From the UHGV virus genome UHGV-0197997: 52,500 nt of DNA, one strand, 5' to 3'. Below, piece by piece: positions 19,552-28,114 of the stretch (position 1 is its first letter; each line of letters begins with the position of its first letter). The notes below the pieces were generated by a model. The model was not told the DNA's origin. It saw only the letters and a program-made list of their open reading frames with translations, and made no database searches. The DNA comes from a virus. The position numbers and the translations under genes were made by a program.

Positions 19552-21288
19552 TCACACTATGATGGGATTACTGAAAAAGTCGTCAATATCGCCGGAATCA
19601 TCCTCATATCCTTCGGAAGCACCGATCGCCATAGCTCCCGCAACAATGCCGTCGATGCGTCCTGTACTCTTTTTCTTTGCAAAAATTCGGTTTTCTTTCT
19701 GATCAGCCTCCGTCACTGCTGACGCTGCATTCCAGCGAAGGCAAGGGTTTGTCCTGATGATAATGACGCTGTCATCGAGCAACTCCTCGAACAACTCGAT
19801 CGAGTGAGGCATCCACAGCCCGGAATCTTTCGCTTTGTAATACCCTTGCCCGTGAGGAATTAAGGGAACAGAAACAGATGCCTCCTCTAGCTCCGGCTCA
19901 AGGTATTTAATACGATACTGGTCGAAGGCGATGGCCTTGATATCAAACTTCTGAGTCAGATCTGCAATGCGCTGGGCAACAAAGCCGTATTTCACCGCTT
20001 TACCAGGTGTGGTGTGGATGTGACCATCGCGCTCCCAGGCGTCATAAGGTACCCGGTCCGTTTTCGCCCGTTCCAGCAACGTATCTTTCGGGGTCCAGAA
20101 CTCCACCAGCAACTTACGTTGTTTTGGAAAAAACAACGCCAGTGCAGTCAAATCACGCGATCCGGACAGGTCCAGACCGCCATAGCATTCCTCGCCTTCC
20201 AGTTCATCTGGATCAAAGCTTTCCTCACAACCCATCCAGACATCACTGCTCATCCACGGATTAGCCGCGTCAACCCACTGACAGAAGTTAAGACGTCTGA
20301 CGATGCTCTCTTTCGATGGCATCCCGCGGGCCTGAGTCACCTGCTCACGAAGATAGCTTTCTTCAAAGGTGTGACCCAGCGAAGGGTTAGCTTTCTTCCA
20401 GCAGGACTCATCCTTGAAAGGATCGTCCCCTTCATCCAGAGAACAGATGAAGGCAAAAAAGCTATCATCATCTATCGAACCGGCAGAAACCTTTCGACCG
20501 TATTCGTGATAGTCATAGCAGACGCTGGTTTTATCGTGTCCACTGTTTGTGATCATGAAAATCAGCGCCTGCCGGCGGCCTTTGGTACCGGCACGCATCA
20601 TTTCAACAACCTGATTGCTTTTATGCTCGTGAACTTCATCAATAAGAGCGCAATGTGGTCGCGGGCCGGACTGCCCATCATCAGAACTGATTGGACGAAA
20701 GAAGGAACCTGCCTGAAGAAAAGCCAGGTTCCACTCTTTCCCGGCGCCACCAGATTTATGAATGCGCGCGGAAAGAGCCGGTGACTGATCGACCATCGCC
20801 ACCGCATCACGGAAGAGAACCATTGCCTGGTCTTTTTTCGTGGCCGCAGCATACACTTCAGCACGAGGCTCTTTATCCGCCGTTAGACAGTAAAGCCCTA
20901 TCCCGGCAGACAGGGGGGATTTGCCGGATCCCTTCCCGGACTCCACATAGGCCATTCGGAACCGGCGAAAACCGCTGGCTTTTTTCCAGCCATAAATCGA
21001 ACCGACGATGAAGCACTGCCATGGCAGCAACACGAAAGGCTTGCCTTCGAAATCGCCACCATTGAGCTTCAGAACTTTCGCAAAATAATCAATCGAGCGT
21101 TGCGCCGCCTCAACATCCCAGTGCAGACCACGAGCGTGACATGACTTCAGGTCGTTGAGATGGCGCTGGCACGAGTTACGGATGTCAGGCCCTGCCAGTT
21201 CTTTTCCCGAGGTTACATCCATCGCATATTGGGTTGCAGGATCAACCGAAGAACTTGTCGAGCGTGTCCTCTTCGGGGTCTTCGCCAT
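19552..21288 (-). CDS. terL: Terminase large subunit
   Basis: 578 aa with Walker A-like GKGSGKS and nuclease-type C-terminal region; start may be the internal ATG near 21222 because the track start overlaps terS. Confidence 0.9.
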   Translation of the reverse strand: MAKTPKRTRSTSSSVDPATQYAMDVTSGKELAGPDIRNSCQRHLNDLKSCHARGLHWDVEAAQRSIDYFAKVLKLNGGDFEGKPFVLLPWQCFIVGSIYGWKKASGFRRFRMAYVESGKGSGKSPLSAGIGLYCLTADKEPRAEVYAAATKKDQAMVLFRDAVAMVDQSPALSARIHKSGGAGKEWNLAFLQAGSFFRPISSDDGQSGPRPHCALIDEVHEHKSNQVVEMMRAGTKGRRQALIFMITNSGHDKTSVCYDYHEYGRKVSAGSIDDDSFFAFICSLDEGDDPFKDESCWKKANPSLGHTFEESYLREQVTQARGMPSKESIVRRLNFCQWVDAANPWMSSDVWMGCEESFDPDELEGEECYGGLDLSGSRDLTALALFFPKQRKLLVEFWTPKDTLLERAKTDRVPYDAWERDGHIHTTPGKAVKYGFVAQRIADLTQKFDIKAIAFDQYRIKYLEPELEEASVSVPLIPHGQGYYKAKDSGLWMPHSIELFEELLDDSVIIIRTNPCLRWNAASAVTEADQKENRIFAKKKSTGRIDGIVAGAMAIGASEGYEDDSGDIDDFFSNPIIV

Positions 21289-21706
21289 TCACTTTCACCT
21301 TCGTCCTTGCCGCTGGCGTCAGACCGAATTCAACCAGGTAACTTTTAAAACGGCGGTCGGCATCGGCCAGCATCGAAACGGCCGGGTTAGCTTTGATAAG
21401 AAAACCACCCTCGGTCTGGACGGTATAGGTTCTTCCCTCTACTGCGATGGTGTCGCGCAACTGAAGGATATCAGCGTAAATATCGCATAGCCGTTCAAGG
21501 GCTAAGGTGTCGGCAACCGTTAGCACCCCCATCCCGTCAAGGAGAACCGTCAACCTTCCCCAGGCAACCTTTCCCCAGTCGGTCAGGTGCGCCGGCGGGC
21601 TTGGAATTTCTCGCGCCGGAGTCGGTTCTTTATCGTTGAGTTTACGTTTACCCGGGTTGCCGGAGACCACTTTGAGATGGGTCGGTTTCGGGCGTCGTCC
21701 TGCCAT
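21242..21706 (-). CDS. terS: Terminase small subunit, P27 family
   Basis: 154 aa ORF preceding terL; typical HNH-terS-terL arrangement. Confidence 0.75.
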   Translation of the reverse strand: MAGRRPKPTHLKVVSGNPGKRKLNDKEPTPAREIPSPPAHLTDWGKVAWGRLTVLLDGMGVLTVADTLALERLCDIYADILQLRDTIAVEGRTYTVQTEGGFLIKANPAVSMLADADRRFKSYLVEFGLTPAARTKVKVNGEDPEEDTLDKFFG

Positions 21707-21886: not shown

Positions 21887-22243
21887 TTATCCCTTAAACC
21901 AATGAGAAGCCGGGTCCAGTGGCATCCCGTTTTCATCGCAGCCGATCACGGTGCCACGCTTCTCCATTCGCTGCTTCGTTGAGTCGTGGTGCTGCTTACA
22001 CAGCCCTTGCCAGTTCTTCCGGCTCCAGAAAAGTTTTTGCGCCTTCGCTATTGCCTGACTGTCACCAGAGCGAAGAGCTTCTTTCAGTTTATGCGGGATG
22101 ATGTGGTCAACCACCGTTGCCGCTGTCACCCTGCCTTGCTCCTGGCACAGGACGCACAAGGGGTGCGCACGAAGGAAGATAAGACGTTCACGGTCCCATT
22201 TGCTGCCGTAAATACGAGGTTCGCTAATCTTATTGGAATACAT
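21887..22243 (-). CDS. HNH endonuclease (packaging-associated)
   Basis: Cys pairs CVLC...C and His-rich HNH core (VDHIIPH...QGLCKQHH); immediately upstream of terS. Confidence 0.85.
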   Translation of the reverse strand: MYSNKISEPRIYGSKWDRERLIFLRAHPLCVLCQEQGRVTAATVVDHIIPHKLKEALRSGDSQAIAKAQKLFWSRKNWQGLCKQHHDSTKQRMEKRGTVIGCDENGMPLDPASHWFKG

Positions 22244-22356
22244 TAATTCGCTTACCTCTTATAAAAATTACTTCTTATGTTTCTAACTTTAATTTAAAAA
22301 GGTTATATGATTAAGTTTACTCTTAATAGTCACCTTAGGCTATCCTCTTATATTAA

Positions 22357-22386
22357 TTGAAACATGATTTTTGTCTTTGGTATAAC
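22357..22386 (+). promoter_or_regulatory. Sigma70-like promoter for plus-strand moron
   Basis: TTGAAA (22357-22362), 18-nt spacer, TATAAC (22381-22386); AT-rich upstream region. Confidence 0.4.
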
Positions 22387-22441
22387 TGACACATTACCCC
22401 AAGACGCTTAATGAAAACTAAGTACAGCAATAAGGACAATT

Positions 22442-22903
22442 ATGGAAATTGAAAATGTTTACAAAGTATTTTCAAATATAAAAAATGAATGCTGCACGGA
22501 GATAAGCTCAACATTAAACTTAAAAAACAAATTAATATCTTATATCAACAACAATGATTTAGTAAGCACAGCAGCATCGGCTTCTATTATAGAGAATAAC
22601 CTCACCATCGACCTCTCACATTTCAATTTAAAACTTGAATGCAAAGAGTCTCTAAAGCTTTATGACTTCCCACCGATTGTTGCTTCGTGTATAGAAATGC
22701 ATTTCTTTTTTAGAGAAGATGATACATTTCACTCTGTATTAAAAATATTCATAACGCACGACGGCTATATCGTGAAAAATGTTTTCTCAAGCGATTATAT
22801 TTGCAAGACCGAAAACGAATACCGGGGGAAAAAAGTTTTCGAAGAAATAATATCATCACTTATTGATAAAGGATATATAGCGTTGACTCCAGAACAACAA
22901 TGA
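22442..22903 (+). CDS. Hypothetical protein, AT-rich moron, 153 aa
   Basis: ATG preceded by AAGGA; opposite strand to late operon; visibly low GC; no recognisable motifs. Confidence 0.55.
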   Translation: MEIENVYKVFSNIKNECCTEISSTLNLKNKLISYINNNDLVSTAASASIIENNLTIDLSHFNLKLECKESLKLYDFPPIVASCIEMHFFFREDDTFHSVLKIFITHDGYIVKNVFSSDYICKTENEYRGKKVFEEIISSLIDKGYIALTPEQQ

Positions 22904-22945
22904 CAGAGTCAAGAGTTTTAATAATAAAACAGAATTGATATTATC

Positions 22946-22968
22946 ATAGGCACTCATAGAGTGCCTAT
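22946..22968. terminator. Hairpin between convergent morons
   Basis: Inverted repeat ATAGGCACTC-ATA-GAGTGCCTAT; weak T-tract on plus strand. Confidence 0.4.
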
Positions 22969-22977
22969 TCTGCTTTA

Positions 22978-23223
22978 CTAGCTAATCTGCTCTGAGGCTG
23001 TATCAAACAGCGCCAGCGCTTCGGTGGCTTCCTGAATCGCTTTGATGGTCTTTGCAACCACTTCAGATTCGGTTACAACCCGGTTGTACTGCTGGATGAA
23101 AATCTGATATTTCAACTGACTGTCCTGTACGAATGCAATAGCCTTAGCAGCTGCTGCTGTATCGTAGTTCAGGATTGAAAGCAAGTTCAGGCGTATTTGT
23201 TCTGCTAGTGTGATGTCTGCCAT
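22978..23223 (-). CDS. Hypothetical small protein, 81 aa
   Basis: ATG (MADITLAEQ) preceded by SD GAGGAAAG; downstream of membrane-anchored moron. Confidence 0.5.
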   Translation of the reverse strand: MADITLAEQIRLNLLSILNYDTAAAAKAIAFVQDSQLKYQIFIQQYNRVVTESEVVAKTIKAIQEATEALALFDTASEQIS

Positions 23224-23352
23224 GTCTGTCTTTCCTCTATGCGATGTGGGGAGCATTATCAAAATCACTATTCGGAATGGTTTCTGAAGTGCCATTAAAA
23301 AAACCACCTGTGGGTGGCCTTTTTAATATCTAAATAAATTGCAGGGCAGTGA

Positions 23353-23907
23353 TTATTTTGAATCAAAGACAAATCGTGAAGATGTTATTTTATTAAGCAA
23401 CTGCACTAATGGTGCCTTAGTCCCTTCTCCATTGATATAATGTTCAAAGTCGTCTTCGAGTATTATCCAGTCTCTAGCAAGTTGAGTCCCATCAAATAAG
23501 TGCTCAGTAGCAAGCCAAGACGATTGGCAGGCGTCAAAGATGCTAAGAAGGTTATCAAATCTCTGCACATTCTGCTCTCCAGCATCTATCTGCTGACTTA
23601 TGAGATCGACATCTTTAAAAAGCCACCTCACAATAACCTGCTCCCTCTCTTCCTCAAGTTCATCTCGGTCAAGGTTTAGTGGCATATTTAACAAGGCGAC
23701 TCTTAATTGTTTGATCGCAAATCTAAACTCCATTTTTACTTTTGTTTTTTCTTGCTCTCGCCAGGTTGTCAGGGCTCTATAAGCAAAAATCAAAGTGACT
23801 ACGCTTGCAGTGCCACTAATAAATGCAGCAATCATTGACCAAAACGCCCACTCAGCTGCATTGCGATTAGCCACAAGCGTTTCATAAGCTATATAACTAG
23901 CATCCAT
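23353..23907 (-). CDS. Membrane-anchored hypothetical protein (one N-terminal TM helix)
   Basis: Hydrophobic segment WAFWSMIAAFISGTASVVTLIFAY near N-terminus followed by charged soluble domain; SD GAGGTGG. Confidence 0.5.
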   Translation of the reverse strand: MDASYIAYETLVANRNAAEWAFWSMIAAFISGTASVVTLIFAYRALTTWREQEKTKVKMEFRFAIKQLRVALLNMPLNLDRDELEEEREQVIVRWLFKDVDLISQQIDAGEQNVQRFDNLLSIFDACQSSWLATEHLFDGTQLARDWIILEDDFEHYINGEGTKAPLVQLLNKITSSRFVFDSK

Positions 23908-24257
23908 ATCCACCTCACATTAGTTATGAGGTTATTCTAACAAAATATATTAGGGCCGCCACCTGGTGAATGGCTCCTGCAATGCTTTGCCACTTCCCGG
24001 AGTGGCCACGCTCATGCCCTTGAGTAGCTGCCACATCATCGCCGCTTATAACTAGTGCGCGTCTGGCATTCGCGCTTCTTTACCGGAGCATGTTCCCTTA
24101 TTTACCCTCACAACGGTCTGCTATACCTGCTCGCCATTACGCGACTCGGGGCAGCATCATTACTGCTGCTCTGCCTTTCGACTGCGGTCTATCCGCTTTA
24201 ATTCTTCATGGCTGTATCCTCGGGTGGGGATAGCTGTTGGGTTATCCCTTCGTGGGG

Positions 24258-24374
24258 TTAGCGCATGGGAAAGTTGATGATGAACATAAGCCCGATTAAT
24301 GCGCACAACAACCCTACAGCGCCACCCACAACAATGAGCGCCCAAACGATAATGGTTCCTATGGTTGCAATCAT
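24258..24374 (-). CDS. Small hydrophobic peptide, 38 aa (single TM)
   Basis: ATG preceded by AAAAGG; MIATIGTIIVWALIVVGGAVGLLCALIGLMFIINFPMR; begins 20 nt after the Rz1 stop. Confidence 0.3.
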   Translation of the reverse strand: MIATIGTIIVWALIVVGGAVGLLCALIGLMFIINFPMR

Positions 24375-24394: not shown

Positions 24395-24601
24395 TTATGG
24401 GCAGTTCGCCAGCACTGATTTGTTGTGCGCCAGAATGTCGCGCTTGGTCTGCTTATCCAGCACATCGATATCGTGGTCGGTCAGGTAGATGATCCGCACC
24501 CAACTGCACGCGGTATCAACCACCACCGGGGCGGGTAAATCTTTCGCGCAGCTCCCTATCAACATCGTCATCAGGCATATGGCTAACAGTCTGCTGTACA
24601 T
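24395..24601 (-). CDS. Rz1: Outer-membrane spanin lipoprotein (Rz1-like)
   Basis: +1-frame ORF overlapping 3' end of Rz; signal plus lipobox-like LIGSC; MYSRLLAICLMTMLIGSC. Confidence 0.5.
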   Translation of the reverse strand: MYSRLLAICLMTMLIGSCAKDLPAPVVVDTACSWVRIIYLTDHDIDVLDKQTKRDILAHNKSVLANCP

Positions 24602-24791
24602 CGCTGGCCCCTTTCGTTGCATCAGCCCGGCGTTCTGCCGCGGCGACAGTAGCAGCGGCGTTTTCTTCAGTGCGTTGCTGCTTGGCTTTTTCTTCGGCTT
24701 TACTGGTACCGCGGGCATGACCAATACCGAACGCGCTAGCGATAACGCCCAGCAGGACAAACACCAGCCCGGCAATAGTTTCGATTCCCAT
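24516..24791 (-). CDS. Rz: Inner-membrane spanin (Rz-like)
   Basis: N-terminal TM helix then charged coiled-coil-like region; immediately after endolysin. Confidence 0.5.
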   Translation of the reverse strand: MGIETIAGLVFVLLGVIASAFGIGHARGTSKAEEKAKQQRTEENAAATVAAAERRADATKGASDVQQTVSHMPDDDVDRELRERFTRPGGG

Positions 24792-24793
24792 AG

Positions 24794-25423
24794 TTACCCC
24801 ACCAATACCGATTTTGCCTTCAGGAAACGGGCACGCCGATCATCAACTCCGTTCTGCCCGCCGTTGATAATCAGGGTGACGCGGACCAGGTCACCGGGAT
24901 ATTTCAGGCAGCCCTTACTGGCATAAAACCAGGCCGCACTTCGTGCCGCGTATTCGTCCTGCGCCAGTAGTTCAGGCTGGACCACCAGATCGACCTTCAA
25001 CCCGGTCCCGCAATCCCGGTAATTCGTCAGTCCGGTGATATGGATAAGACCACGGCCACGATATAGCCAGCCATCACCAGGGCCTTTGTTGCCATTCCTT
25101 TTGTTGTAGGCAAGGTTGGCGATCGCCCGCTGGCGCGCAAGCGGTAGTGACGGCTCACCCTGCCGGCGTCCGAGGGAATTGGCCTGGTCCTGCGTCAGTC
25201 GCCCGGCGCGCACAAATCCCGCCAGCCCGGTAACGCTGTAATTGAAACTCTCCACCAGTTGGGTAAACCCGACGCTTTCATGCCCGACCTGAGCAATAAA
25301 CATCGCCTGGTCGACAGGCGCCGTAATGCCGAATTCTTTCATTGCTGCAGTGATATGCGGATACCAGCGCGCAGCTAAGCCGGCGCTGATACCAGCCGCC
25401 TGCTGAAATTGTGATTGATTCAT
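24794..25423 (-). CDS. Endolysin, glycoside hydrolase family 19-like
   Basis: GH19-type motifs (QVGHESVGF, GRGLIHITG); follows holin. Confidence 0.8.
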   Translation of the reverse strand: MNQSQFQQAAGISAGLAARWYPHITAAMKEFGITAPVDQAMFIAQVGHESVGFTQLVESFNYSVTGLAGFVRAGRLTQDQANSLGRRQGEPSLPLARQRAIANLAYNKRNGNKGPGDGWLYRGRGLIHITGLTNYRDCGTGLKVDLVVQPELLAQDEYAARSAAWFYASKGCLKYPGDLVRVTLIINGGQNGVDDRRARFLKAKSVLVG

Positions 25424-25704
25424 TAGTGCCTCAGTGTATCGACCAGGCGCGCCACGTTACCCCGTGCCCACAGCACGGCGGCGCAGATAAGGATGTTTGC
25501 CAGTACCACCAGCCAGTGGGACTGTACGTAAAGACCGAAGATAAACTGGAAGGGAATGCTCGCGTAAATCAGCACAAGCACATAAGCAAGTACGGAAATT
25601 CCTGGGCGATGCCGGGAACCGCGACGTTGATAAAACATCAACGCACAGACGATAACGACACAAATAACAGCATTGGCCAGTGCAGCAGGGTCATTTATTA
25701 CCAC
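25423..25704 (-). CDS. Holin (small 3-TM membrane protein)
   Basis: 93 aa with three hydrophobic helices and charged C-terminus; overlaps upstream membrane ORF. Confidence 0.6.
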   Translation of the reverse strand: MVINDPAALANAVICVVIVCALMFYQRRGSRHRPGISVLAYVLVLIYASIPFQFIFGLYVQSHWLVVLANILICAAVLWARGNVARLVDTLRH

Positions 25705-26086
25705 TCGAACCTCCTCCCCTAAATCGGGAAAGTATTCCGAACAGGCTGCTCAGATCCTGGCTGTTGATGAAAGTCAGGACCCTGATAGTGATAGCTGATG
25801 CCACCACTGCACCGAGCGCATCAAGCGGGCGGTCTGTATAGCCTGTCCAGGCAGTAAATTTTGAGCCTAATAGTCCAGCAGCCAGAACACCGACAATAAA
25901 CGATGTCATGAAGTAGGCTATCTGCCTCCCTCGTGTCAGGTTCGCGGTCGTTGCCACATAAAACACCGCACCACCAAAGGCTCCAAACACCACACCAAAA
26001 TCGGTATGAGTAATAACGCCATAAGCGACAGAACCAATTAACCCGCCTCCAAAAATAAGGCCGGTACCAGTTAAAGGATCGGACAT
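25691..26086 (-). CDS. Holin-like Gly-rich membrane protein (holin/antiholin candidate)
   Basis: 131 aa, multiple Gly-rich hydrophobic helices; first gene of lysis cassette. Confidence 0.5.
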   Translation of the reverse strand: MSDPLTGTGLIFGGGLIGSVAYGVITHTDFGVVFGAFGGAVFYVATTANLTRGRQIAYFMTSFIVGVLAAGLLGSKFTAWTGYTDRPLDALGAVVASAITIRVLTFINSQDLSSLFGILSRFRGGGSSGNK

Positions 26087-26522: not shown

Positions 26523-26915
26523 ATGAACAATCTGGAAAAATTACGCGCTGTTGGGGAAGCGGTATATGGGGATAAGTGGCAGTCTGCACTTTCACGCGCC
26601 CTCGGTATTTCTGACCGTACCGTGAGGAATTTCGTGTCTGGGAAGTCCCAACCGGAAAACTTATCAAATCGCTTACTCGAGGCGATGGAGCTTGAAATGG
26701 GGAAAATCAAAGCGGCCATCGACATCATCAATAGCGACAAGTTGCGTGGTGACGACATCTCTATTGAGATGATTACTCAAATTGCAGACCGCTACGAATA
26801 CTGTGATGAACAAGATCGTAAGGCTGCGATAGACGCAATGAACAATGCAGTTTACGAGGAAACATTCCTCTCCGACCTGGAAGCAATAGCGATCAGACTC
26901 GCAATACGCCATTAA
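26523..26915 (+). CDS. HTH DNA-binding protein
   Basis: HTH-like segment QSALSRALGISDRTVRNFVSG; follows small acidic ORF; hairpin 26920-26943 after stop. Confidence 0.55.
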   Translation: MNNLEKLRAVGEAVYGDKWQSALSRALGISDRTVRNFVSGKSQPENLSNRLLEAMELEMGKIKAAIDIINSDKLRGDDISIEMITQIADRYEYCDEQDRKAAIDAMNNAVYEETFLSDLEAIAIRLAIRH

Positions 26916-26930
26916 TGTTAAGCCCACGCG

Positions 26931-27161
26931 TTAACGTGGGCTTAAATTGGGGTGTGGTGCTGAGTGCCTCTCAGTAAGCCTTTGGTCAGCAACCATGACT
27001 TGCGGTCCGAGTGAATCATAAGGATTCCATTTAAGCTGTTTCCGCCCCTCCGCACAGGGGGATTCACCACGCCAATAATTTATAGCTACTTCATTCCCAT
27101 CGTCAATAGCAAGCACTCTGTCAAAGGCACCCGAAGATGCCTTTTGCACAGTGTTATTCAC
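26931..27161 (-). CDS. Hypothetical protein, 76 aa
   Basis: ORF downstream of small membrane ORF; stop lies in hairpin loop; weak support. Confidence 0.3.
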   Translation of the reverse strand: MNNTVQKASSGAFDRVLAIDDGNEVAINYWRGESPCAEGRKQLKWNPYDSLGPQVMVADQRLTERHSAPHPNLSPR

Positions 27162-27309
27162 TGGACTTAATTAACGGCCAGAGTAAAGCAATTACTCCGG
27201 CCACCAGCACGCCATCTGCCAGGATGGACATCATTTTGCTGGTGAAGTCGATGGCAACCACCAAGAACAAAAGCACCCCGGCAGCGCCCCAGCGAAGTTT
27301 GCCAATCAC
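27154..27309 (-). CDS. Small two-helix membrane protein, 51 aa
   Basis: GTG start overlapping TerB-like stop as GTGA; hydrophobic segments GAAGVLLFLVVAI and GVLVAGVIALLW. Confidence 0.35.
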   Translation of the reverse strand: MIGKLRWGAAGVLLFLVVAIDFTSKMMSILADGVLVAGVIALLWPLIKSSE

Positions 27310-27728
27310 AGATACTGATCCAGAGGAAGCTGCAGAGCCTGGGAGATTTTCTTCAGAGCCACCTCTTCTTCTTCACCAATACCATCGTTATCTGCAATAT
27401 CCAGACAGAGGCAGAGAACATCCACTGCATCAGAGGTACCGGCAACATCAGCCAGTTGACGAATAGCTTCGGCGTTAGCTGAACGCGGGGAAGCTTCGTA
27501 ACGAGCGCGAATGTTCGAACTCATCTGGGCAATTTCACCAGCGAACGGGGCAAATGCCGGCAGCGCGGAGATAGTTTTCTCCAGTACCGCAATCTCTTTT
27601 GCATCACAGGTGCCATCCGCATACGCAATCGAGTATGCGCCCCAGACAGTTGCCTCTACCGCATCGCGGTTCTCCATCTTCTTAACTTCTGCTACTGCCT
27701 TACGTGCTTTTTTACCGAATCCAAACAT
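27306..27728 (-). CDS. TerB-like (tellurite-resistance TerB family) domain protein
   Basis: Two ADG-type motifs (IAYADGTCDAKE and LDIADNDGIGEEEE). Confidence 0.55.
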   Translation of the reverse strand: MFGFGKKARKAVAEVKKMENRDAVEATVWGAYSIAYADGTCDAKEIAVLEKTISALPAFAPFAGEIAQMSSNIRARYEASPRSANAEAIRQLADVAGTSDAVDVLCLCLDIADNDGIGEEEEVALKKISQALQLPLDQYL

Positions 27729-28038: not shown

Positions 28039-28114
28039 TGGTGCTGGTTGACGGAATCGAACCACCGACATCCTACTTACAAGGCAGGTGCTCTACCTAC
28101 TGAGCTAAACCAGC
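28039..28114 (-). tRNA. tRNA-Thr (anticodon UGU), phage-encoded
   Basis: Hand-folded cloverleaf: acceptor GCTGGTT/AACCAGC, D-arm GCTC-AGTAGGTA-GAGC, anticodon loop CTTGTAA, T-loop TTCGATT, encoded CCA; T-stem needs two wobble pairs; 5' end overlaps methyltransferase stop by 10 nt. Confidence 0.55.

What the first reader, a model, noticed from the sequence alone, without database searches (positions are those of the whole stretch)
22357..23913. Three low-GC morons between the lysis cassette and HNH/terminase, one with its own promoter and one membrane-anchored
A plus-strand 153 aa ORF (22442-22903) with a good sigma70-like promoter (TTGAAA/TATAAC) lies antisense within the late operon. It is followed convergently by an 81 aa protein and a 186 aa protein with a single N-terminal TM helix, both with good SD sequences. 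None matches a family I recognise. The lysis-terminase junction is a known moron site in lambdoid phages (bor in lambda), so these are candidate lysogenic-conversion, exclusion or toxin-antitoxin-like functions.
Basis: partly seen in the sequence, partly recalled or inferred. Interest (0 to 1): 0.55.

Follow-up and report, generated by a model that had tools for sequence, protein, structure and literature searches.

The report
Prophage cargo genes before packaging module
Between the lysis and DNA-packaging genes of a Klebsiella prophage sit two horizontally acquired cargo genes of unknown function (one antisense with its own promoter, one membrane-anchored) and one ordinary conserved phage gene, an arrangement typical of a known hot spot for prophage accessory and defence genes.

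Summary
The three ORFs exist as described, with corrections. The window is a Klebsiella pneumoniae HK97-like lambdoid prophage with its late operon on the minus strand.

- **ORF153 (22442-22903, +)** is a real, self-contained antisense unit. It has a conserved extended -10 promoter block, an SD and a conserved hairpin terminator, at 32% GC. Its family is tiny. In every locus examined it lies between the lysis and packaging modules and antisense to the late operon, across four terminase types. It matches no known family.
- **The 81-aa gene** is DUF2560 (PF10834), the P22 Orf80 family. It is a backbone late gene of near-normal GC, not a moron.
- **The "186-aa" gene** is really 184 aa (phrog_6169). 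It encodes a single-pass inner-membrane protein with a four-helix bundle. It is a mobile single-gene cassette with its own terminator, always found at this junction.

In sister prophages the same slot carries Acb2/Tad1-like, Abi_alpha and YfbU genes. The organisation mirrors phi80 taiEcA and lambda bor, but homology to TaiEcA, SieA, SieB and PADLOC models is absent.

Verdict: new members of a known kind (hot-spot morons, candidate defence or exclusion genes); function untested.

In passing, I found an apparently uncatalogued, widespread structured RNA at 23969-24231 (-).

The parts
22357..22386 (+). Promoter-like site of ORF153: TTGAAA, 18-nt spacer, TG-n-TATAAC (extended -10)
   Evidence: Read. 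The TTGGTATAA block is conserved upstream of homologues at 88% and 70% protein identity, and partly in a 41% homologue. It was not listed by the generic scan because of the scan's T6 rule.
22442..22903 (+). ORF153: cytoplasmic acidic 17.6-kDa alpha/beta protein; antisense moron
22946..22968 (+). 10-bp hairpin between the convergent ORF153 and DUF2560 genes; terminator of ORF153
   Evidence: Conserved in the Klebsiella homologue loci, with an analogous hairpin in L030.
22978..23223 (-). DUF2560 (PF10834, phrog_571) 81-aa acidic helical protein; P22 Orf80 family; backbone late gene
   Evidence: 29% identity to P22 Orf80 over the full length, E 2e-10. It lies adjacent to HNH in phages that lack ORF153.
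23253..23293 (-). Downstream copy of the ~40-nt junction sequence (GCAyTnCAG..CCATTC..GTG..GATAATGC) that flanks the ORF184 cassette
   Evidence: alignment A10.
23297..23320 (-). Intrinsic terminator after ORF184 (CCACC-CACA-GGTGG followed by T7 on the minus strand; also scored on the + strand)
   Evidence: Homologue loci have a terminator directly after the stop codon.
23353..23907 (-).
   Evidence: (pLDDT 83). Contexts.
23934..23939 (-). TAGAAT, a conserved TAnAAT hexamer about 27 nt upstream of the ORF184 start (possible -10; TG-extended only in the window)
   Evidence: the hexamer aligns as TAnAAT in four of the five diverged loci and as TAAAGT in the fifth. No convincing -35 was found, so promoter status is uncertain.
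23947..23985 (-). Upstream copy of the ~40-nt junction sequence; it travels with ORF184 in other genera
23969..24231 (-). Adjacent and outside the original finding: a conserved structured RNA element that begins with an SD, an ATG and a 0-3-codon mini-ORF

Best explanation
This is the accessory-gene hot spot between the lysis cassette and the packaging module of a Klebsiella pneumoniae lambdoid (HK97-type) prophage. It holds two independently acquired single-gene cargo cassettes on either side of one backbone gene.

**ORF153**
- Shown: it is a self-contained unit consisting of a conserved extended -10 block, an SD, the ORF and a hairpin.
- Shown: it is inserted between DUF2560 and HNH, antisense to the late operon.
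- Inferred: it is transcribed constitutively in the lysogen.
- Inferred: it is damped during lytic growth by the convergent Q-antiterminated late transcript.
- Inferred: its cytoplasmic acidic alpha/beta product acts as a prophage-encoded anti-phage factor. This is the same logic as phi80 taiEcA.

**ORF184**
- Shown: it is a mobile cassette (gene plus terminator plus about 40 nt of upstream junction sequence) on the late strand.
- Inferred from the positive-inside rule: it encodes an inner-membrane protein with a short periplasmic N-tail, one TM helix and a cytoplasmic four-helix bundle.
- Inferred: it most likely acts as a superinfection-exclusion or abortive-infection type membrane protein. 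A core lysis role is less likely, because it occurs with unrelated holins and endolysins.

**DUF2560 (P22 Orf80 family)** is a conserved late gene of the backbone with unknown role. It is not cargo.

I put about 0.8 on 'two cargo morons plus one backbone gene at a known hot spot'. I put about 0.35 on each of the specific defence or exclusion functions.
For: **Position and orientation**
- ORF153 homologues, from 100% down to 22% identity, always lie between the lysis and packaging genes and always antisense.
- This holds next to four packaging types: Terminase_4+HNH, Hendrixvirinae TerS, Terminase_2/3 and Nu1-like/GpA.

**Presence/absence among relatives**
- The related phage ST147-VIM1phi7.2 has HNH directly followed by DUF2560.
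- E. coli phage 733R5 has the upstream RNA element abutting DUF2560, with no ORF184.

**Composition**
- GC is 30-37% for ORF153 and 35-40% for ORF184 in loci of 45-55% GC.

**Regulatory signals**
-.

**Contents of the slot in sister prophages**
- Acb2_Tad1_hairpin, Abi_alpha and YfbU.

**Independence of ORF184 from the lysis and packaging machinery**
- It occurs with holin families Phage_holin_8/3_7 or 2_3, with GH19 or Phage_lysozyme endolysins, and with three terminase types.

**Precedent**
- Tai defence genes lie 'predominantly upstream of the packaging module'.
- They are divergent within the Q operon, expressed in the lysogen and reduced by Q (PMC11364771).

**ORF184 structure**
-.
Against: - No functional evidence of any kind exists here.
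- No hit to PADLOC, Pfam, NCBIfam or PDB for ORF153 or ORF184.
- ORF153 is not homologous to TaiEcA (hhalign probability 4.8%).
- ORF184 is not related to P22 SieA or SieB.
- Fold searches gave only generic four-helix-bundle or frataxin/KA1-like matches.
- The ORF153 model has low confidence (pLDDT 62).
- The ORF184 promoter is weak or uncertain, so the gene may be expressed only as a late gene.
- A late-only ORF184 would fit a lytic-cycle role (lysis timing, anti-defence) better than a lysogen-expressed exclusion role.
- The invariant position could partly reflect the few sites in these genomes that tolerate insertions, rather than selection on function.
Confidence: 0.55

Rival explanations
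1. ORF184 is a lysis accessory of the late operon, for example an antiholin, holin modulator or membrane-associated lysis-timing factor. It would be expressed only by Q-dependent read-through.
For: - It always directly follows the Rz/Rz1 or LysC genes on the late strand.
- It is membrane-anchored.
- Its own promoter is doubtful.
Against: - It occurs with unrelated holin, endolysin and spanin families, and is absent from most phages carrying the same lysis cassette.
- It has low GC, its own terminator and a flanking duplication, so it behaves as cargo.
- It has no hit to any lysis PHROG or Pfam family.
Confidence: 0.2
2. One or more of the genes are anti-defence (counter-immunity) proteins used during lytic growth, like the Acb2/Tad1-type sponges found in the same slot of sister prophages. 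On this reading the small acidic DUF2560 protein could be an inhibitor, or even an Ati-like antidote to ORF153.
For: - Acb2_Tad1_hairpin genes occupy the slot between Rz and DUF2560 in several sister prophages.
- All three proteins are acidic, with pI 4.5-5.1.
- DUF2560 and ORF184 lie on the late strand.
- In phi80 a 76-aa late-strand antidote lies beside the antisense tai gene.
Against: - DUF2560 is widespread without ORF153 (P22-like phages, Klebsiella phages).
- ORF153 relatives occur without DUF2560 (L030, L031, L033, L042, L046).
- DUF2560 has no similarity to AtiEcA.
- ORF153 is antisense with its own promoter, which fits lysogen expression rather than lytic use.
Confidence: 0.15
3. The genes are lysogenic-conversion or virulence morons of the bor/lom type, or a toxin-antitoxin pair.
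For: ORF153 has the same locus and the same antisense orientation as lambda bor (established knowledge of lambda). AT-rich cargo is typical of conversion genes.
Against: - None of the three has a signal peptide or lipobox, and ORF153 is cytoplasmic.
- No TA-like co-directional pair or conserved partner exists.
- No TA, toxin or virulence family was hit.
Confidence: 0.07

Closest known systems
phi80 TaiEcA/AtiEcA (tail assembly inhibition defence in a 'noncontiguous operon'), PMC11364771
   Same: A single gene sits just upstream of the packaging module. It is transcribed against the Q-dependent late operon and is flanked on the late strand by a small (~80 aa) gene. It is moron-like cargo of lambdoid prophages.
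   Different: ORF153 (153 aa) shows no detectable homology to TaiEcA (204 aa). DUF2560 shows none to AtiEcA. DUF2560 is not specifically linked to ORF153. Function and expression are untested here.
Lambda bor (and the moron concept of Juhala/Hendrix for HK97/HK022)
   Same: A low-GC, autonomously transcribed gene lies between Rz and the packaging genes, in antisense orientation (ORF153). It is variably present among related phages.
   Different: Bor is an outer-membrane lipoprotein. ORF153 has no signal peptide and ORF184 has no lipobox. There is no sequence similarity.
HK97 gp15, P22 SieA and T4 Imm (inner-membrane superinfection-exclusion proteins)
   Same: ORF184 is a small prophage-encoded inner-membrane protein carried as a single-gene moron.
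   Different: ORF184 has no homology to SieA or SieB. It has a 135-residue soluble four-helix bundle, predicted to be cytoplasmic. It lies on the late strand, and lysogen expression is unproven.
P22 Orf80 / Pfam DUF2560 (PF10834)
   Same: The 81-aa protein is a member (64 bits against a 25-bit cut-off; 29% identity to Orf80 over the full length). It occupies the same position, just upstream of the terminase genes.
   Different: Nothing notable. The family itself has no known function.
Acb2/Tad1-type anti-defence sponges and Abi_alpha genes in the same slot of sister Klebsiella prophages
   Same: They occupy the same variable slot between Rz/Rz1 and DUF2560.
   Different: ORF184 shares neither sequence nor fold with them; it is membrane-anchored.

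Membership tests
Moron (autonomous cargo unit in a phage operon) | Present or absent among otherwise collinear relatives | tested here: met
   ORF153 is absent in ST147-VIM1phi7.2, where HNH abuts DUF2560. ORF184 is absent in most sister prophages and in Ec733R5.
Moron (autonomous cargo unit in a phage operon) | Atypical base composition | tested here: met
   ORF153 is 31.8% GC and ORF184 40.4% GC, against 49.9% for the window. The same holds in all homologue loci. DUF2560 at 46.7% does not meet this feature.
Moron (autonomous cargo unit in a phage operon) | Own promoter and terminator | tested here: inconclusive
   Terminators are present and conserved. For ORF153 the extended -10 block is conserved. 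For ORF184 only a conserved TAnAAT was found, with no -35. Activity cannot be tested in silico.
Moron (autonomous cargo unit in a phage operon) | Expression from the repressed prophage | not testable with these tools
   Needs RNA-seq or a reporter assay in the lysogen.
Tai (tail assembly inhibition) defence | Sequence homology to Tai proteins | tested here: not met
   hhalign of the ORF153 profile against phi80 TaiEcA gave probability 4.8%. Only TaiEcA was tested, not the other Tai versions.
Tai (tail assembly inhibition) defence | Location upstream of the packaging module, divergent within the Q operon | tested here: met
   compared with the paper's description.
Tai (tail assembly inhibition) defence | Blocks tail assembly of the infecting phage | not testable with these tools
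   Needs plaque assays and electron microscopy.
DUF2560 (PF10834) / P22 Orf80 | Pfam gathering threshold; full-length similarity to Orf80 | tested here: met
   64.1 bits against a 25-bit cut-off. phrog_571 at E 2e-29. BLASTP to P22 Orf80 at E 2e-10 over 80 aa.
PHROG 6169 | Profile match over the full length | tested here: met
   E 7.5e-56, residues 17-184 against profile positions 2-164 of 165. The family has no known function.
Known anti-phage defence systems (PADLOC-DB v2) | Match to any defence protein model | tested here: not met
   No family at E <= 1 for any of the three proteins.
Toxin-antitoxin module | Two adjacent co-transcribed genes that co-occur | tested here: not met
   ORF153 is convergent with DUF2560. 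Each of the three genes occurs without the others.
Bor-type lipoprotein | Signal peptide with a lipobox cysteine | tested here: not met
   No N-terminal hydrophobic signal or lipobox appears in any of the three sequences.
Holin, antiholin or spanin | Match to a lysis family, or strict co-occurrence with one lysis system | tested here: not met
   ORF184 hits no lysis PHROG or Pfam family. It occurs with different holins and endolysins.
P22 SieA / SieB exclusion proteins | Sequence homology | tested here: not met
   hhalign probability 0.2% for both.

The most novel reading that the evidence does not exclude
The ORF153 family is a new single-gene prophage defence. It is hard-wired to the lysis-packaging junction in antisense orientation, so that it is on in the lysogen and is switched down by the prophage's own Q-dependent late transcription (self-immunity by transcriptional interference). 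ORF184 is a second, unrelated membrane-anchored exclusion or abortive-infection effector that uses the neighbouring slot.
Probability: 0.3. Interest if true: 0.55.

Novelty: new member of a known kind. Interest (0 to 1): 0.38.

Why it matters
If ORF153 and ORF184 are anti-phage or exclusion factors, they add two uncharacterised families to the prophage-encoded immune repertoire of Klebsiella and other Enterobacterales. That bears on phage therapy against K. pneumoniae. ORF153's antisense placement holds at 22-30% identity and next to four terminase types. This argues that orientation within the late operon is itself selected, which supports the 'noncontiguous operon' control principle described for phi80 Tai. 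The work also removes DUF2560/Orf80 from the moron list. Finally, it points to a widespread structured RNA, with no Rfam match, that sits at the start of antiterminated phage transcripts.

Tried and rejected
**Sequence and family searches that gave nothing for ORF153 or ORF184**
- Pfam, PHROGs, NCBIfam and PADLOC scans.
- Profile searches of PDB sequences.

**Fold searches that gave only generic matches**
- The AFDB library was not available.

**Searches for more ORF153 relatives**
- An exhaustive HMMER search over 1.84 billion representatives, plus a profile search of 5.8 billion proteins, found only about 10 clusters, all 'hypothetical'.
- A scan of GTDB species genomes found nothing.

**Direct homology tests, all negative**
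- ORF153 against TaiEcA, DUF2560 against AtiEcA, and ORF184 against SieA, SieB and the L030 TM protein.

**DNA-level searches**
- Near-DNA searches of 22244-23950 against the phage and E. coli collections found no match.

**Ideas rejected**
- ORF153 and ORF184 as a linked pair: in the loci fetched they co-occur only in this window.
- ORF153 and DUF2560 as an obligate pair: each occurs without the other.
- The 109-aa GTG-extended form of the 81-aa ORF: homologues are 78-81 aa.

**Literature**
- Searches for DUF2560 and for P22 orf80 gave no functional data.

**The neighbouring RNA**
- It has no Rfam hit.
- It is not the STnc100/PasD family, which lies elsewhere in the window at 26915-27101.
- An exact-sequence literature search found nothing.
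Full report
**Setting**

The window is a lambdoid, HK97-type prophage of Klebsiella pneumoniae; ORF153 is 100% identical to K. pneumoniae entries. The late operon runs on the minus strand in this order:
- two holins (25691-26086 and 25423-25704)
- GH19 endolysin (24794-25423)
- Rz (24516-24791) and Rz1 (about 24395-24601)
- a 38-aa hydrophobic ORF (24258-24374)
- about 340 nt without an ORF
- the three ORFs of the finding
- HNH (21887-22243), TerS (21242-21706), TerL (19552-21288) and portal

**Check of the observation**

All three ORFs exist.
- GC falls to 29-32% over 22200-22950 and to about 38-43% over 23100-23850, against about 50-57% in the flanks.
- Gene by gene, ORF153 is 31.8% GC, the large membrane ORF 40.4%, and the 81-aa ORF 46.7% (GC3 52%). 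The last value is backbone-like.
TG precedes the -10, making it an extended -10.
- Alone this is not significant, because the AT-rich region has 9 promoter-like sites against 6.2 +/- 2.7 in shuffles.
- The TTGGTATAA block and the SD region are, however, retained upstream of homologues whose intergenic DNA is otherwise diverged.
- All 20 homologues of the '186-aa' ORF begin at the ATG at 23907, so the protein is 184 aa.

**ORF153**

No Pfam, PHROG (best E 0.029), NCBIfam, PADLOC or PDB-sequence match was found.

The family is very small:
- 5 clusters by word-indexed search
- 8 representatives among 1.84 billion proteins by exhaustive HMMER
- 10 clusters with a broader profile
- all are 150-158 aa, all come from Enterobacteriaceae (named sources: Klebsiella, Leclercia, Pseudescherichia, Kluyvera), and all are annotated 'hypothetical'

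The alignment preserves length and a set of invariant residues down to 22% identity, so this is a real protein gene.

The context is the striking result. In every locus recovered, the gene lies between the lysis cassette and the packaging module and is transcribed against the late operon.
- These loci are twelve Klebsiella places plus L030, L031, L033/34, L042/43, L044/45 and L046.
- The neighbouring packaging genes are of four kinds: Terminase_4+HNH, Hendrixvirinae TerS, Terminase_2/Terminase_3, and Nu1-like DUF1441+GpA.
- Gene GC is 30-37% everywhere, in loci of 45-53% GC.
- A related phage, ST147-VIM1phi7.2, has HNH followed after 55 bp by DUF2560, so ORF153 is an insertion there.
- A 10-bp hairpin (22946-22968) follows the stop codon and is conserved.

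**The 81-aa gene**

It is DUF2560 (PF10834, 64 bits against a 25-bit cut-off) and phrog_571.
- tblastn finds it in 74 phage records: Salmonella P22-like phages, Klebsiella, E. coli and Proteus phages.
- In the records whose context was examined it lies just upstream of the terminase region, for example ST64T orf-118.
- It aligns end to end with P22 Orf80 (P22 map).
- It is adjacent to HNH in Klebsiella phages that lack ORF153.

It is therefore a backbone late gene of unknown function, not a moron. No functional literature was found.

**ORF184**

It matches phrog_6169 (E 7.5e-56) and no Pfam or PADLOC family.
- Homologues of 41-98% identity occur in Klebsiella, Kluyvera, Citrobacter, Enterobacter, Kosakonia, Serratia, Obesumbacterium, Hafnia and Salmonella.
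- They share 35 invariant columns, including the juxtamembrane TWR-QEK motif and the motif W-ATEHLF.
- In every context examined the gene is the last gene after the spanins, on the late strand, just before the packaging genes or other cargo.
- The accompanying holins (Phage_holin_8/3_7 or 2_3), endolysins (GH19 or Phage_lysozyme) and terminases (three types) differ between loci.
- No partner gene is conserved, and ORF153 co-occurs with it only in this window.

The model is confident (pLDDT 83). A long helix (residues 3-73) contains the TM segment (residues 24-42, hydropathy 1.91) and leads into a four-helix bundle. Flank charges are -2 on the N side and +2 on the C side, which predicts N-out/C-in; this is an inference from the positive-inside rule. 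Fold searches return only generic helical bundles. There is no relationship to P22 SieA or SieB.

An intrinsic terminator follows the gene in all loci. A TAnAAT hexamer about 27 nt upstream of the start aligns in four of the five loci (TAAAGT in the fifth), but no convincing -35 exists.

In the window the cassette is bracketed by two copies of a ~40-nt junction sequence, at 23947-23985 and 23253-23293. E. coli phage 733R5 has a single copy directly upstream of DUF2560. The same 40 nt travels with the gene in Citrobacter. The gene is thus a mobile cassette inserted upstream of DUF2560.

**The slot**

In sister Klebsiella prophages the interval between Rz/Rz1 and DUF2560 carries Acb2_Tad1_hairpin, Abi_alpha, YfbU or small unknown genes. 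It is a variable defence/anti-defence slot.

**Comparison with known systems**

He et al. 2024 (PMC11364771) report the following for Tai defence genes:
- phi80 taiEcA lies divergently inside the Q operon, next to a small late-strand antidote.
- TaiEcA is made in the lysogen and decreases when Q is expressed.

ORF153 has exactly this layout, but no homology to TaiEcA (phi80 map). DUF2560 has none to AtiEcA.

Lambda bor shares the locus and the orientation, but it is a lipoprotein. That statement rests on established knowledge, not a test made here.

**Explanation and likelihood**
- I put about 0.8 on the structural conclusion: two cargo morons flanking a backbone gene in a known hot spot.
- For ORF153, I put about 0.35 on a lysogen-expressed anti-phage factor whose antisense placement lets late transcription damp it.
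- For ORF184, I put about 0.35 on an exclusion or abortive-infection membrane protein, about 0.2 on a lysis accessory and about 0.15 on anti-defence.
- None of this is shown; expression and phenotype need experiments.

**Side finding**

The 'empty' stretch upstream of ORF184 contains a conserved element at 23969-24231 on the minus strand.
- It recurs at 74-89% identity in mEp213, Stx2c phages, Klebsiella RothC/D, Hafnia yong1 and Providencia PSTCR7lys.
- A 16-nt core pattern, CTCAAGGGCATRRGCG, retrieved at least 120 IMG/VR loci; about 90 loci in all matched the full-length profile.
- Sixty-three copies below 95% identity show no codon periodicity and no conserved long ORF.
- In nearly all of the 38 copies that could be anchored on the first-hairpin motif, the element begins with a GGAGG-like SD, an ATG and 0-3 non-conserved codons before a stop. 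The ATG sits 13-15 nt before the first hairpin.
- For an eight-helix, 35-pair structure, 94.7% of cells are paired, against 27-37% when the 3' partners are slid.
- 23 pairs show double-sided changes (165 cells), and 0 of 500 shuffles reach the observed values.
- The element lies about 110-290 nt downstream of Q-type antiterminators (often just after a terminator), directly upstream of N-like genes, or ahead of accessory genes in the late region.
- It has no Rfam 15 match. It is distinct from STnc100/PasD, which is present elsewhere in the window at 26915-27101.
- I could not find it described, though the library searched is incomplete.

Noticed in passing
window 23969-24231 (minus strand); core 23985-24215: A widespread conserved structured RNA-like element lies directly upstream of ORF184. 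Most copies begin with an SD, an ATG and a 0-3-codon mini-ORF, followed by at least 8 helices. Across 63 non-redundant copies, 94.7% of cells are paired, 23 pairs covary and 0 of 500 shuffles reach the observed values. CTCAAGGGCATGAGCG is invariant. The element is found just downstream of Q antiterminators, upstream of N genes and ahead of accessory genes in many lambdoid phages. It has no Rfam 15 hit and is not STnc100/PasD.
   Followed up: yes
window 23947-23985 and 23253-23293 (minus strand): A ~40-nt junction sequence (GCAyTnCAG..CCATTC..GTG..TAAT) is directly duplicated on both sides of the ORF184 cassette. It is single-copy in E. coli phage 733R5 and co-travels with ORF184 in a Citrobacter prophage. 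It may be a recombination boundary or linker sequence.
   Followed up: partly
window 24258-24374 (minus strand): An unlisted 38-aa strongly hydrophobic ORF (MIATIGTIIVWALIVVGGAVGLLCALIGLMFIINFPMR) with an SD lies right after Rz1. It could be a small membrane peptide of the lysis cassette.
   Followed up: no
window 26915-27101 (minus) and 28039-28114 (minus): An STnc100 sRNA (Rfam RF02076, 72 bits) and a tRNA-Thr(TGT) lie upstream of the holins, next to an ORF (27306-27728) that looks TerB-like by eye (no family scan was run on it). A 2026 preprint reports a similar gene neighbourhood (TerB, STnc100, tRNA genes and a holin/lysozyme operon) around PasA/PasC, and finds PasD structurally homologous to STnc100.
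   Followed up: partly
L030:6571-7173 (minus), beside a distant ORF153 homologue: A 200-aa protein with one N-terminal TM helix and a helical C-domain sits in the position ORF184 has in the window. It shows no sequence similarity to ORF184. This may be an analogous membrane-anchored cargo.
   Followed up: partly
L126 (IMG/VR), 130 nt downstream of a copy of the RNA element: A 369-aa ORF, judged by eye to have a RelA/SpoT-like (alarmone-synthetase-type) motif, follows the RNA element. This suggests the element often precedes defence-type cargo.
   Followed up: no
L024-L027, downstream of ORF184 homologues: A conserved trio (180 aa, a 461-aa weak Glycos_transf_2 hit, and 71 aa) lies between the ORF184 homologue and HNH/TerS. 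Genes of similar size (a 485-aa ORF followed by one of about 200 aa, no family hits) flank the ORF153 homologues in L030 and L031. This may be further cargo of the same hot spot.
   Followed up: no
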